Positions 2,206 through 5,200 of a stretch of 7,099 nt of DNA are shown piece after piece. A program made the position numbers. Within the stretch, counting starts at the first letter, position 1, and each line of letters starts with the position of its first letter. Origin of the DNA: Octopus sinensis (taxonomy: Eukaryota). The stretch lies in the NCBI RefSeq assembly GCF_006345805.1, contig NW_021828991.1:1-7099 (forward strand). Reading direction: 5' to 3'.

Positions 2206-5200
2206 GACTGCCACTACAATACTTATGATAACATGCTTTACTGATTCTTAAGCTTATAGAAGTGTAGTGTTAAAAGCGCGTATACATATATCAGTAGCAG
2301 CCGAAAATCGTTTGAGCAGTGGTGGTAACATTGCTAAAAGCACTTTCTGTGGGAACAACGAGCAGTTTGAGATACCTAATTACACATCTGTGCTGCATCG
2401 ATGAGCAGAGATAATGAAAAATATTCTTTAATAAAGACAGAACAACTAAGTATCCTTCAACAACATGATACACTTAAAATTTTTATTTGTCTTGGTTTAG
2501 ACAGAAGAAGAGGCAATGTCCATGTCTGTCACATTTCTCTCAGGCTGGAGAGAGATTCATATAGTTAATATACAGTTAATATCCCGTACTATATATTAAA
2601 GCCAGCTAGAGACGACGATCTCTTGGGGCTATAAAGCTACAGTAACACCCCCTCCCCTATGTGGTTAGCCATGATAAGATGGCTTCTATACTTTACATTA
2701 TCGAGCGATTACTGTTTCAATCTCATTCTGAGATTTAATTATGCTTACTGTCAGTTTTTCGATATCAGTGGCAGACGCCACTAGAAAAACTCTTATATAT
2801 TTGCAAGGAAGCCTTCACTTTCGTCGCATCCTGGTGGTTACCGCCCGTTGACAAGGGACAAAAATCCCGAAACTAGTCCGAGCGTATCACTCAGGCTTGC
2901 GAGGAAGGGATGACCTCCCTTTGCAAATACACCATATCAGTGATATGGGTCTGGAAAGCCAGATAGAGACGACGATCTCTGGGGCTATAAAGCTACAGTA
3001 ACACCCTCCCCTATGTGGTTAGCCATGATAAGCGCTTCTGTACTTTCATTATCGAGCGATTACTGTTTCAATCTCATTCTGAGATTTAATTATAGTTAAT
3101 ATACCGTACATCAACAAAACCTGAAAGACGTTGACAAGAAGGTAAAGAGATAAAACGTCTAGATTTTAAACATCGTTTCACTGCCCAAGATAGTTCGCCG
3201 TTGGAGGAGAATGTCACAGCTGCAAATGTGTTTCCTCTTTCTTCATGTATCTGCCGCATAATCCCGATAACCGTGTTAATCATCACAAAAAAGCACCGCC
3301 ACCATATTGTGATGTAATGGTCAACAAGGTTCGTTGGATTATGACAGATAGAGGTTCGATACCGGTGAGCGGTCCTATTTTAGTTTGTCTTTGACTCGTG
3401 TTTCTAAAGGGTCAAATTTAATAAGGGAGAAGGAAATAGTTTTAGAATTCATATAAAAGACATAGGCCGAGAATGAATGAGTCAAATAATTGATAACATT
3501 GAGTATACAAAATGATGCGTGTGTATGCACGCACACACACGCACACACACACATCGCACACGCACATATATATGTCTGTGTGTACGCATGTGTGTGTATG
3601 TGTGTATGTGTGTGTGTCTACATACATGTTGTATATACATGCGGGACATACACTCACGTATTGAACCGTTAATCCCTACACATTTTCCTCTCTCCGTGTT
3701 TGTTTTTGTTTTTGTTTTTTACTCTCCATTTTTAGCTATAGGCTCTCTCCGTCGAAGAGCGTAGGCTCGAAACGTCAAAGACTTTACCATTCTTCTCGAG
3801 CGTCAAACAAATACCCCTGCACGTTGTTCCCACAGAAAGTGCATTTAGCAATGCCACCACCGCTGCTCGGCGATATCCGGCTGCTACTGATATATGTATA
3901 TGCGCTTTTAACACTACACTTCTGTAAGAGACGCATCAACGTAAAAGGGAACAAAATGAACAAGTTAAAAGAAATGAACAAGTTAAAAGAACAGAACTGT
4001 GTGCTGCAAAAATGCCGAGATAACCAGAAACAAAAGCCGAACACGGTAAAATAATATTAAGAATATTGTCAGTTTCTTTCGAGAAAATACATTAATATAA
4101 GTAAAAAAATAAATAAAGTTATAATTATTGGCAACGTGTAGAGTTCTCTAGTGGACAGTTAGTACAAGGAAGATAATAATTTCTTCATAATCTGTATCTG
4201 TATATATATAAAACTGAAGTTGTCTGTGTTTGGCAGGTTTGGTAGCCTTCAACTAACACTATCTCCTCCGAGACCCTGCGGTGCAAGTTGACCAAAATTG
4301 AGACTATGATAGAAGAAGGCTTGCTCTTCCTTCCGTAAAAGATAAAATTCAAGTCGGACCATGTTAACACCAAAAATTATTTACGTCAAAAACGTGCGTT
4401 TATTTTCTGTGAAAATTCCTATTTTTTACTGCTGCGTCGCCATTTTTCAGTGTATTTCAACCAGAAAATTGTTCGCTTAAGAGAATAACAAGCTACATAA
4501 TGCAAAATTTTTACTTTTCAAAAATTCCAATTCTAAAGGGTCGAAACAAACCCGAGCAACGCCGGGCAATACTGCTAGTATTTGAAAAGATTAGACATTT
4601 GGGTTTGAAACTGAGTAATAACGAAGATGCAAAGAATACACACATCTAATTTCTTATTTTTATTTATTTACATATTTTACTTATTACGAAGGCCTTAAAT
4701 TTTCCAATCTTAGGAATGGTATTTTTTAATTAAGATCAATTTTTAAAAGTATAATCGCTTTGGAGGTTAGTCTATAATCGTACAGATCAAAACACCCACG
4801 CAGGTGTGATTTATAAAGTGTCACTAACTGACAAAGAAGTTGAAATAGTATGAGTTTTTTTTTCTTTTTCTTTTTTTCTGCTATATGAACTAAAATGAGA
4901 TTTGTGTAAAGTAGAACTAACATGGATTGATACAAGCATACTAGGTAAGAGAAAACGAAAGATTAAAAAGAAAAGAGTAAGAAAAGCTAAACATGAAACC
5001 CAAATAAAACAGAACGTGAGAAAATATGGTAATTCGTTTCCCGGAAGTGTTGGTTTGTGTATCCTTTCTATTATAAACACAAGGTCTAAATTTGAGCGGT
5101 GGGTGGGTGGGGGTTAGGGTTTGTCGATTACATCGACACCAGTGCTCGACTAGTACTTATTTTATCGATCTCCGAAAAAGTGAAAGACGAAGTTGATCTC

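What the first reader, a model, noticed from the sequence alone, without database searches (positions are those of the whole stretch)
2598..3093. Candidate cephalopod retrozyme: a 357-nt hammerhead-bearing unit inserted as about 1.4 tandem copies
Seen: two roughly 140-bp direct repeats 357 bp apart, no TG...CA ends or ORF, a hammerhead between them, and a duplicated target. Established: metazoan non-LTR retrozymes are non-coding repeats of a few hundred bp with type I hammerheads; they yield circular RNAs and are thought to be mobilised by Penelope-like elements. Inference: the terminal redundancy is what reverse transcription round a 357-nt circle, past its start point, would leave. I do not know of this family being described, but cannot verify novelty. 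With only one ribozyme, this locus could not itself release a unit-length monomer, so a source array with two or more ribozymes should exist elsewhere.
Basis: partly seen in the sequence, partly recalled or inferred. Interest (0 to 1): 0.9.

Follow-up and report, generated by a model that had tools for sequence, protein, structure and literature searches.

The report
Octopus hammerhead retroelement, one inert copy
This is an old, non-coding mobile-element copy in an octopus genome that carries one self-cleaving hammerhead RNA motif and was pasted in as about 1.4 head-to-tail units, which makes it a fairly ordinary new example of the known animal "retrozyme" or Penelope-dependent kind.

Summary
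The arms 2598-2742 and 2955-3093 align over 145 columns with 3 mismatches and 4 indels. A 16-nt target duplication (15/16) brackets the whole 504-bp insert. No ORF exceeds 51 aa.

A type I hammerhead lies between the arms. Rfam Hammerhead_HH9 matches 2830-2900 at 32.7 bits (gathering score 52) once the search is narrowed. The core is not canonical: C3-G8 is replaced by U3-A8, a covariation already reported in Schistosoma Penelope-like elements. Helix III is only the palindrome ACUAGU, so the ribozyme should act as a dimer.

A SINE elsewhere in the window places the window in Octopus.

The unit (351-357 nt, 45% GC, strongly self-paired) fits metazoan non-LTR retrozymes, now argued to be non-autonomous Penelope derivatives.

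With one ribozyme and 1.4 units the locus fails the "two consecutive ribozymes" criterion, so it is an inert daughter copy.

The template RNA was continuous across the cleavage site and longer than one unit. A circle fits. So does a Penelope-style partial tandem, which hammerhead-less Penelope elements also make.

Copy number, arrays and RNA could not be checked because no cephalopod genome was available.

Verdict: new member of a known kind, of moderate interest.

The parts
2574..2589 (+). Left copy of the target-site duplication (AGTTAATATCCCGTAC). An 11-nt tandem duplication lies just upstream and overlapping it (2559-2582).
   Evidence: 15 of 16 identical to 3094-3109. These flanks hold the only such 16-mer pairs among 5,474 tested. 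TRF reports period 11, 2.2 copies.
2590..2597 (+). Eight filler bases (TATATATT) between the left target copy and the element. They match neither the unit junction nor the target. The same 8-mer occurs inside the unit at 2794-2801.
   Evidence: Read. Origin unknown: untemplated addition, a template switch or a Penelope-type 'tail'.
2598..2742 (+).
2743..2954 (+). Single-copy middle of the insert (212 nt). It holds the hammerhead and its long helix I extension.
2798..2929 (+). Long imperfect hairpin (rod) with the hammerhead at its tip. Helix I continues into about 40 further pairs.
   Evidence: The stretch 2797-2930 folds at -50.3 kcal/mol, z -4.5, with 0 of 200 shuffles as stable. The opposite strand folds as well, z -5.4, so the inverted repeat alone does not fix the strand.
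2830..2900 (+). Type I hammerhead. Helix I distal strands are 2830-2837 and 2887-2895. The internal loop is UUAC (2838-2841) opposite UA (2885-2886). Helix I proximal is CGCCCG (2842-2847) with CGAGCG (2879-2884), 5 of 6 paired. Core UUGACAA is at 2848-2854 (U3, A8). Helix II is GGGA/UCCC (2855-2858 and 2865-2868) with loop CAAAAA. GAAA is at 2869-2872. Helix III is reduced to the palindrome ACUAGU (2872-2877). C17 is 2878, so the predicted cleavage is at 2878/2879.
   Evidence: Rfam Hammerhead_HH9, 32.7 bits, E 3.3e-7, model positions 1-77 of 77. Own descriptor. Shuffles.
2955..3093 (+). Arm A', the second copy of the arm. It ends at the 3' end of the insert (...TTTAATTAT) with no A-tail.
3094..3109 (+). 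Right copy of the target-site duplication (AGTTAATATACCGTAC). With the two preceding bases, 3092-3104 also matches 2562-2574 at 13 of 13.

Best explanation
The stretch 2590-3093 is one old retrotransposed copy of a small non-coding element of an Octopus genome. It belongs to the metazoan non-LTR retrozyme kind, meaning a non-autonomous passenger of Penelope-like elements (PLEs).

Shown by the sequence: a 351-357-nt unit carries one type I hammerhead with the loop nucleotides of the Rfam HH9 consensus, a U3-A8 covariant core and a helix III reduced to the palindrome ACUAGU. The unit is present 1.4 times head to tail and is bracketed by a 16-nt target duplication. The cDNA crosses the predicted cleavage site (2878/2879) intact. 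It also crosses the unit boundary, so its template was continuous over more than one unit.

Inferred mechanism: a source array elsewhere is transcribed. Paired hammerheads from neighbouring units build a shared helix III and cut out unit-length RNA. A Penelope-type endonuclease and reverse transcriptase nicks an AT-rich target and copies the RNA by target-primed reverse transcription. The staggered second nick gives the 16-nt duplication.

The extra 0.4 unit arose in one of two ways. Either the enzyme ran on round a ligated circle, or it made the usual Penelope-style partial tandem on linear or concatemeric RNA. Given that the element is of this kind, I put these at about 40% and 60%.

This copy has one ribozyme that cannot fold helix III alone, so it is inert. 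It can neither cut efficiently nor release a monomer.
For: Repeat, TSD and ORF checks.

Hammerhead: there is an Rfam HH9 match over the whole model. It is the only zero-core-mismatch descriptor hit in the window. Shuffles reached a hit in 4 of 5000 element-only and 35 of 1000 whole-window runs. A control stretch containing a CGAAACGTC string gave no hammerhead.

Core variant: U3-A8 instead of C3-G8 is reported as a natural covariation in Schistosoma Cercyon PLE hammerheads, with about 1,300 hits (PMC4209133 passage). C3 and G8 pair in the active fold (PMC3884650 passage). The arms differ by 3 substitutions in 139 aligned bases. Two post-insertion hits on exactly these two paired positions would therefore be roughly a 1e-4 event (my estimate), so the variant was probably already in the template.

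Helix architecture: a 6-bp helix I, a 4-bp helix II and a 1-2-bp helix III with a small palindromic loop is the stated architecture of most metazoan type I hammerheads, which act as dimers (PMC4209133 passage).

Unit properties match the class description: 150-450 bp, GC below 50%, no LTR/PBS/PPT, TSD longer than 4 bp, self-paired circles, and 350-390 bp in mussel (PMC7229834 sections 13 and 14). Here the unit is 351-357 nt with GC 0.45. Its circular fold has z -3.8 and -4.0, with 0 of 200 shuffles as stable.

Penelope link: retrozymes are close to PLE pLTRs in Xenopus (preprint 10.64898/2026.07.22.740005, section 11 part 1). Penelope is among the families annotated in all five cephalopod genomes compared (PMC8967140 passages).

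Host: all 7 named hits of 8 are Octopus.
Against: Only one locus was seen. Multi-copy status, source arrays, an autonomous partner and any RNA are all unverified.

The hammerhead scores 32.7 bits against a gathering score of 52. Rfam missed it in two wider searches. Its core departs from the consensus at two invariant positions, and helix I has a C.A mismatch. Self-cleavage is therefore unproven, and published PLE-type dimeric hammerheads cleave poorly in vitro (PMC4209133 passage).

No Penelope RT or GIY-YIG frame is in the window. Pfam gave 0 relevant hits in 18 frames.

The rod folds as well on the minus strand, so fold stability does not itself point to an RNA of + polarity.

The arms show 4 indel events against 3 substitutions. 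That is indel-rich for pure neutral decay and could mean the two arms were never identical.
Confidence: 0.72

Rival explanations
1. A 357-nt hammerhead-processed RNA was ligated into a circle. The reverse transcriptase primed at the position equivalent to 3093 and ran about 1.4 times round it, leaving the terminal redundancy.
For: The cDNA contains the cleavage and ligation junction 2878/2879 intact. Neither end of the insert coincides with that junction, so the template was not a linear ribozyme-cut monomer. The unit folds as a stable circle. This is the published model for the class: a primed circRNA gives cDNA longer than one unit (PMC7229834 section 17; PMC7761336 passages).
Against: An uncleaved concatemeric transcript, or a template jump between two linear RNAs, gives the same product. 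PLEs in general insert as a truncated copy plus a full copy. This includes Naiads, which lack canonical hammerheads, and non-autonomous Chlamys elements (PMC8557442 passages). The redundancy therefore does not need a circle. The arms differ by 4 indels and 3 substitutions, whereas two passes over one circle should start identical. No RNA data are available.
Confidence: 0.3
2. This is the 3' terminal piece of an ordinary autonomous Penelope-like element. The insertion was severely 5'-truncated, and the parent's terminal region already holds this 1.4-fold repeat. On this reading it is a pLTR fragment and not an independent non-coding family.
For: Most PLE insertions are 5'-truncated and keep only a terminal repeat (preprint section 16; PMC8557442 passages). 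Hammerheads sit in PLE terminal repeats (PMC4209133 abstract and passages). Penelope is annotated in octopus genomes (PMC8967140 passages).
Against: The repeat period is 351-357 nt with no coding sequence between the arms, whereas a PLE unit is 3 kb or more (PMC8557442 passage). The hammerhead lies in the single-copy middle and not in the duplicated arms. No RT or GIY-YIG remnant is found anywhere in the window.
Confidence: 0.12
3. It is not a mobile ribozyme element at all. It is a local duplication or the remnant of a satellite array, and the hammerhead-like fold is a decayed or chance motif with no activity.
For: Rfam places the motif below the family's gathering score and missed it in wider searches. 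Two invariant core positions differ. My descriptor was relaxed after I had seen the candidate.
Against: An A-B-A' layout bracketed exactly by a 15/16 target duplication is not what a simple tandem duplication of an existing segment gives. The motif matches the HH9 model end to end, including loop nucleotides that no descriptor of mine required. The two core changes are the one pair that keeps a Watson-Crick 3-8 contact, and that variant is documented in nature.
Confidence: 0.05

Closest known systems
Metazoan non-LTR retrozymes (Cervera and de la Pena 2020), e.g. the 350-390-bp repeats of the mussel Mytilus galloprovincialis
   Same: Non-coding unit of the same size, a type I hammerhead, GC below 50%, no LTR/PBS/PPT, a TSD longer than 4 bp, a predicted self-paired circle, and a mollusc host (PMC7229834 sections 13 and 14).
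   Different: Here there are only 1.4 units and one ribozyme, not an array. The sequence is unrelated as far as can be told. The mussel hammerheads are said to lack most of the loop 1/loop 2 nucleotides, whereas this one shares them with the HH9 consensus. RNA circles were shown for mussel and not for this element.
Amphibian retrozymes (axolotl, and newt satellite repeats) with dimer-dependent hammerheads
   Same: A weak helix III, so the ribozyme should need a second copy to cut (PMC7229834 abstract; PMC7761336 passage). Here helix III is only the palindrome ACUAGU.
   Different: The papers say most invertebrate retrozyme hammerheads have a stable helix III and cut as monomers, so a dimer-type motif in a mollusc is the less usual case. 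The core here is U3-A8.
Minimal hammerheads of Penelope-like elements, especially the Cercyon variant of Schistosoma mansoni
   Same: The U3-A8 covariation in the catalytic core, a palindromic 15.2-16.2 region, G10.1-C11.1, and frequent occurrence as single dispersed motifs (PMC4209133 passages).
   Different: PLE minimal motifs usually lack the loop-loop nucleotides and have an extra base between positions 9 and 10.1. This one has neither of those traits and otherwise looks canonical. No PLE ORF is attached.
Rfam Hammerhead_HH9 (RF02275)
   Same: Best-scoring family, aligned over all 77 model positions. It shares the UUAC and GUA internal-loop bases and the CAAAAA loop 2.
   Different: The score is 32.7 bits against a gathering score of 52. 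The core has U3-A8, helix III is 5 nt shorter, and helix I has one C.A. As I recall (not checked here), HH9 is an amniote intronic ribozyme and not a repeat.
Non-autonomous Penelope-type elements that make pseudo-LTRs (e.g. MRC1/Chlamys in Chlamydomonas)
   Same: Short non-coding elements inserted as partial tandems or head-to-tail multicopies (PMC8557442 passage).
   Different: They are in a different kingdom and clade, and canonical hammerheads are absent from most of that clade.

Membership tests
Hammerhead ribozyme, type I | Invariant core CUGANGA ... GAAA ... UH | tested here: not met
   0 canonical hits on either strand. The core reads UUGACAA ... GAAA ... UC, so positions 3 and 8 differ.
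Hammerhead ribozyme, type I | Positions 3 and 8 able to form a Watson-Crick pair | tested here: met
   U3-A8. The same covariation is reported in natural PLE hammerheads (PMC4209133 passage). The C3-G8 pair is described in a PMC3884650 passage.
Hammerhead ribozyme, type I | Three helices round the core with helix I open; G10.1-C11.1; cleavage after H17 | tested here: met
   Helix I has 5 of 6 proximal pairs plus a distal stem. Helix II has 4 bp starting G-C. Helix III is A-U and C-G within the palindrome ACUAGU. Position 17 is C.
Hammerhead ribozyme, type I | Rfam gathering score | tested here: not met
   32.7 bits against 52 for RF02275. There was no hit in the two wider searches.
Hammerhead ribozyme, type I | Self-cleavage | not testable with these tools
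   Needs in vitro transcription of monomeric and dimeric constructs.
Metazoan non-LTR retrozyme | Tandem units each with a type I hammerhead (at least two consecutive) | tested here: not met
   There are 1.4 units and one hammerhead. The second arm ends at 3093, before the ribozyme position. The criterion is taken from preprint section 5.
Metazoan non-LTR retrozyme | Unit of about 150-450 bp, GC below 50%, non-coding, without LTR-type ends | tested here: met
   The unit is 351-357 nt with GC 0.45. Frames are at most 51 aa with no relevant Pfam family. The ends are AAAGCC and AATTAT. PBS and PPT were not searched for separately.
Metazoan non-LTR retrozyme | Target duplication longer than 4 bp when present | tested here: met
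   16 nt, 15 of 16 identical.
Metazoan non-LTR retrozyme | Stable, highly self-paired circular RNA fold | tested here: met
   Circular MFE is -103.0 and -104.4 kcal/mol, z -3.8 and -4.0, with 63-65% of bases paired. The minus strand folds as well.
Metazoan non-LTR retrozyme | Many genomic copies; expression as linear and circular RNA | not testable with these tools
   No cephalopod genome or transcriptome was at hand. The two scans of bacterial and archaeal genome contigs found 0 matches.
Metazoan non-LTR retrozyme | Co-existence with autonomous Penelope-like elements in the host | tested here: inconclusive
   No PLE frame is in the window. The literature lists Penelope in octopus genomes (PMC8967140 passages) and Naiad remnants in cephalopods (PMC8557442 passage).
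Autonomous Penelope-like element / pLTR | ORF with RT and a GIY-YIG endonuclease between the repeats | tested here: not met
   212 non-coding nt lie between the arms.
Autonomous Penelope-like element / pLTR | Full copy preceded by a 5'-truncated copy (partial tandem), variable TSD | tested here: met
   A 145-nt partial unit followed by a 351-nt unit, with a 16-nt TSD. The feature is as described in PMC8557442 passages.
Plant LTR retrozyme | Type III hammerheads in about 350-bp LTRs, PBS, PPT, 4-bp TSD | tested here: not met
   The hammerhead is type I, sits outside the repeated arms, and the TSD is 16 nt. The features are from PMC7761336 passages.
tRNA-derived SINE | tRNA-like head, LINE-type or A-rich tail | tested here: not met
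   ARAGORN found 0 tRNAs in the window. The element has no A-rich 3' end.

The most novel reading that the evidence does not exclude
Octopus genomes harbour a live retrozyme family whose otherwise canonical, loop-stabilised type I hammerhead uses a U3-A8 core pair. Source arrays of this family yield abundant 351-357-nt RNA circles. On this reading, TSD-bounded 1.4-mers such as this one, with start points permuted between copies, would be the first direct genomic footprint of target-primed reverse transcription running round an RNA circle.
Probability: 0.2. Interest if true: 0.65.

Novelty: new member of a known kind. Interest (0 to 1): 0.35.

Why it matters
Retrozymes are a known but thinly sampled class, and how they are mobilised is still a model rather than a result.

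A cleanly bounded copy that is longer than one unit and crosses the ribozyme cut site shows that the template was not a simple cleaved monomer. A genome-wide survey of such copies could decide between circle-templated and Penelope-style tandem insertion, depending on whether the ends are fixed or permuted.

The U3-A8 core in an otherwise canonical hammerhead also offers a natural test of the 3-8 pair.

I found no cephalopod hammerhead or retrozyme in three full-text searches. Supplementary tables, Dfam, Repbase and Rfam full alignments could not be seen, and the family may already be listed there.

By itself, this single decayed copy is an ordinary repeat.

Tried and rejected
Rfam on the whole window at E<=1 gave 28 matches and no hammerhead. 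The microRNA-like matches at 3500-3650, 5266-5336, 5597-5657, 6277-6359 and 6890-6957 lie on CA/TG/TA microsatellites and are all far below their gathering scores. Rfam on 2560-3130 at E<=10 gave one CRISPR-repeat chance match. Only the 85-nt search showed the hammerhead. The tool text says its filters are laxer with less sequence, so I treat the earlier blanks as filter losses. They still count against a strong motif.

TRF did not report the 351-357 period.

The string CGAAACGTC at about 3767-3775 looked hammerhead-like. It fails helix I by eye, fails my relaxed descriptor and fails Rfam on 3715-3815, so I rejected it.

The relaxed descriptor (one core mismatch, helix I at least 4 of 6) gave 12 further rows at 7 other core positions. 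All had a core mismatch and weak stems in AT-rich sequence, and I rejected them as chance.

Two scans of genome contigs (bacteria and archaea only) found nothing, one with a 22-mer and one with a degenerate hammerhead pattern. That was expected and says nothing about copy number in Octopus.

A dimer fold with an intermolecular helix III could not be scored. The structure is a pseudoknot for ViennaRNA, and the returned energy of 100000 is an error value. The unconstrained cofold merely swapped helix I strands. The dimer claim therefore rests on the palindrome itself and on the literature.

The near-length protein search with the SINE frame gave one unnamed ENA protein (P0001). I did not use or fetch it further.

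Pfam on 8 larger frames elsewhere in the window gave only sub-threshold matches.

PMC1986816 (Przybilski and Hammann 2007, on exchanges of the 3-8 pair) is not held. I saw only its title in a reference list, and what I remember of its results is not used as evidence. Lunse et al. 2017, on dimeric PLE hammerheads, appeared only as a phrase cited in other papers and was not read.

Species lists in the supplements of PMC7229834, PMC4209133 and the 2026 preprint might already name cephalopods.

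Full report
WHAT IS THERE.
The window is 7,099 bases with no N and 37.6% GC. It is full of microsatellites. Within it, 2598-2742 and 2955-3093 are direct repeats. The repeat finder splits them into four in-register blocks whose spacing drops from 357 to 351 because of small indels. BLASTN joins them at 93.8% over 145 columns. 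A global alignment counts 3 mismatches and 4 gap events covering 6 gap columns. The unit is therefore 357 nt read as 2598-2954, or 351 nt read as 2743-3093.

The insert is bracketed by AGTTAATATCCCGTAC (2574-2589) and AGTTAATATACCGTAC (3094-3109), 15 of 16 identical. Among 5,474 non-simple 16-mers of the window, the only pairs with at most one mismatch at 480-560 nt spacing are three overlapping registers at these flanks. The left flank also matches 3092-3104 at 13 of 13 from 2562-2574. This means the left copy carries an 11-nt tandem duplication. Eight bases, TATATATT (2590-2597), lie between the left copy and the element and belong to neither.

The arms start AAAGCC and end AATTAT, and there is no A-tail. 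The longest frame in the element is 51 aa. Pfam found nothing relevant in 10 of 10 element frames.

THE HAMMERHEAD.
Rfam did not report a hammerhead on the whole window at E<=1 or on 2560-3130 at E<=10. On 2822-2906 it reported Hammerhead_HH9 (RF02275) at 2830-2900 on the + strand. The score is 32.7 bits, E 3.3e-7, covering model positions 1-77 of 77, against a gathering score of 52. Scaled to the whole window, that E-value would be about 3e-5 (my arithmetic). I attribute the earlier blanks to the speed filters, which the tool says are laxer for short inputs.

The alignment shows a 5-bp distal and a 6-position proximal helix I, separated by UUAC opposite UA. Helix II has 4 bp and a CAAAAA loop, followed by GAAA, and C2878 is the cleaved nucleotide. 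The loop bases are those of the model consensus.

Three things lower the score. The core reads UUGACAA instead of CUGAUGA-type, so U3 and A8 replace C3 and G8. Helix III lacks five model positions and is only ACUAGU. One helix I position is C.A.

My own descriptor gave 0 canonical hits on both strands and exactly one hit when any Watson-Crick 3-8 pair was allowed. Dinucleotide shuffles produced at least one such hit in 35 of 1000 whole-window runs and in 4 of 5000 element-only runs. That descriptor was relaxed after I had seen the candidate, so the Rfam match is the cleaner evidence. A still looser descriptor found only weak AT-rich hits with a core mismatch elsewhere. A control stretch with a CGAAACGTC string gave no Rfam hammerhead.

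IS THE ODD CORE DECAY OR DESIGN?
C3 and G8 pair in the active fold (PMC3884650 passage). Cervera and de la Pena (2014) report a natural U3-A8 covariation in hammerheads of the Schistosoma Cercyon Penelope-like element, with about 1,300 genomic hits (PMC4209133 passage).

The arms of this insert differ by 3 substitutions in 139 aligned bases, which is about 1% per lineage. Two later hits on exactly the two paired positions would be roughly a 1e-4 event. This is my estimate, and it assumes the arms were identical at insertion. I therefore infer that the template already carried U3-A8. Whether the ribozyme cuts was not tested.

The same paper states that most metazoan type I hammerheads have a 6-bp helix I, a 4-bp helix II and a 1-2-bp helix III capped by a small palindromic loop, and that they act as dimers. 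That is the architecture seen here.

RNA FOLD.
Helix I runs on into a long imperfect hairpin. The stretch 2797-2930 folds at -50.3 kcal/mol, z -4.5, with 0 of 200 shuffles as stable. Folded as a circle, the unit gives -103.0 kcal/mol (357 nt) and -104.4 kcal/mol (351 nt), z -3.8 and -4.0, with 63-65% of bases paired. Helices I and II of the hammerhead are kept in the minimum-energy fold. The minus strand folds as well or better, so the stability reflects inverted repeats in the DNA and does not fix the polarity. Only the hammerhead does that. The downstream part 2879-3093 alone is unremarkable, z -1.7.

HOST.
A frame through the SINE-like repeat at about 5444-5840 hit 8 longer proteins. Seven carry names, and all seven are from Octopus vulgaris or O. 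bimaculoides, the best at 88% identity. These are unrelated genes sharing an exonised repeat.

WHAT IT IS.
Size, GC content, lack of coding sequence and of LTR features, a long TSD and a self-paired circle all match the description of metazoan non-LTR retrozymes (PMC7229834 sections 13 and 14). Mussel units are 350-390 bp. A 2026 preprint argues from Xenopus that these are non-autonomous derivatives of Penelope-like elements. It also finds single units to be common, and it calls an element active only if two or more consecutive units carry the ribozyme (sections 11 part 1, 16 and 5). By that criterion this locus is not an active retrozyme.

Penelope is among the families annotated in all five cephalopod genomes compared in PMC8967140 (passages). 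None is present in this window: Pfam gave 0 relevant hits in 18 frames.

HOW IT GOT THERE.
The insert crosses the predicted cleavage site intact, crosses the unit boundary, and has neither end at the cleavage site. These points are shown directly. The template was therefore not a linear ribozyme-cut monomer. It was continuous over at least 1.4 units.

The mechanism is inferred: target-primed reverse transcription by a Penelope-type enzyme at an AT-rich site, with a staggered second nick giving the 16-nt duplication.

For the extra 0.4 unit there are two readings. The other reading rests on Craig et al. (2021). They describe the partial tandem, a full copy preceded by a 5'-truncated copy, as the normal form of all endonuclease-bearing Penelope-like elements. 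These include Naiads without canonical hammerheads and non-autonomous Chlamys elements that make head-to-tail multicopies (PMC8557442 passages). On that reading, 2743-3093 is a full 351-nt element with a fixed 3' end and 2598-2742 is the truncated upstream copy.

One locus cannot separate the two. The indel-rich difference between the arms leans slightly against two passes over one circle. However, the target duplication has itself gained a substitution and an 11-nt duplication, so later decay may explain the difference.

RIVALS.
A 5'-truncated autonomous Penelope end is possible, but the 351-357-nt non-coding period and the ribozyme lying outside the duplicated arms argue against it. A chance motif in a local duplication is unlikely, given the end-to-end HH9 alignment, the compensated core pair and the exact bracketing by the target duplication.

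NOVELTY.
Three full-text searches found no paper describing a hammerhead or retrozyme of an octopus or other cephalopod. The papers holding both words use them in unrelated contexts. 'Cephalopod' occurs 0 times in the three key papers. Supplements, Dfam, Repbase and Rfam full alignments could not be seen.

The kind of element, its proposed life cycle and the U3-A8 variant are all in print. The finding is best called a new member of a known kind. Its one useful twist is a canonical-looking, loop-bearing hammerhead with the U3-A8 core and a dimer-type helix III in a mollusc, where the papers say monomer-active motifs prevail.

LIMITS.
No cephalopod genome, repeat library or transcriptome could be searched. 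The only open collection holds bacteria and archaea and gave 0 hits. Copy number, arrays, the autonomous partner, RNA circles and catalysis all remain open.

Noticed in passing
window 5444-5840: A SINE-like repeat with an internal TA/TG microsatellite. A frame through its 3' half matches pieces of 7 named Octopus vulgaris or O. bimaculoides proteins of unrelated function (decarboxylase, liprin, cobalamin transporter and others). The repeat has therefore been exonised, or mis-annotated, in many octopus gene models. ARAGORN and Rfam see no tRNA in it.
   Followed up: partly
window 2253-2365 and 3817-3928: Two copies of a repeat of about 113 nt in inverted orientation (89% identical), 1.45 kb apart, bracketing the hammerhead element and a CA/TG microsatellite. 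They could be the terminal inverted repeats of a DNA transposon or MITE into which the element inserted, or two independent insertions.
   Followed up: no
window 2559-2582: An 11-nt tandem duplication (2.2 copies) lies inside the left copy of the target duplication and is absent from the right copy. It arose either at integration or afterwards.
   Followed up: partly
window 2590-2597 and 2794-2801: The 8 filler bases at the 5' junction (TATATATT) recur exactly inside the unit. This may be a trace of a template switch, or chance in AT-rich sequence.
   Followed up: no
window 644-736: A short tandem repeat of about 42 nt (GATCAAAAGGGATCGTGAAAAAAAGTGGGG-like), 2-3 copies at 85% identity.
   Followed up: no
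window 6481-6756 (-): A 91-aa frame with a weak match to the Mos1 transposase HTH domain (HTH_48, E 0.002, below the cut-off). It is probably a mariner remnant.
   Followed up: no
window 3500-3650: Rfam microRNA-family matches (mir-3149, mir-297, mir-5014 and others, E down to 3e-10 on both strands). They lie on a palindromic CA/TG microsatellite and are far below their gathering scores, so they are artefacts of simple sequence.
   Followed up: yes
window 3740-3790: A string with a GAGC/GCUC hairpin followed by CGAAACGTC looks like part of a hammerhead. It has no helix I or proper core, and Rfam finds nothing there.
   Followed up: yes
window 922-1558 (-): All three minus-strand frames stay open for 80-144 aa over the same stretch, with no Pfam match. 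This may be a decayed retroelement or merely composition.
   Followed up: partly
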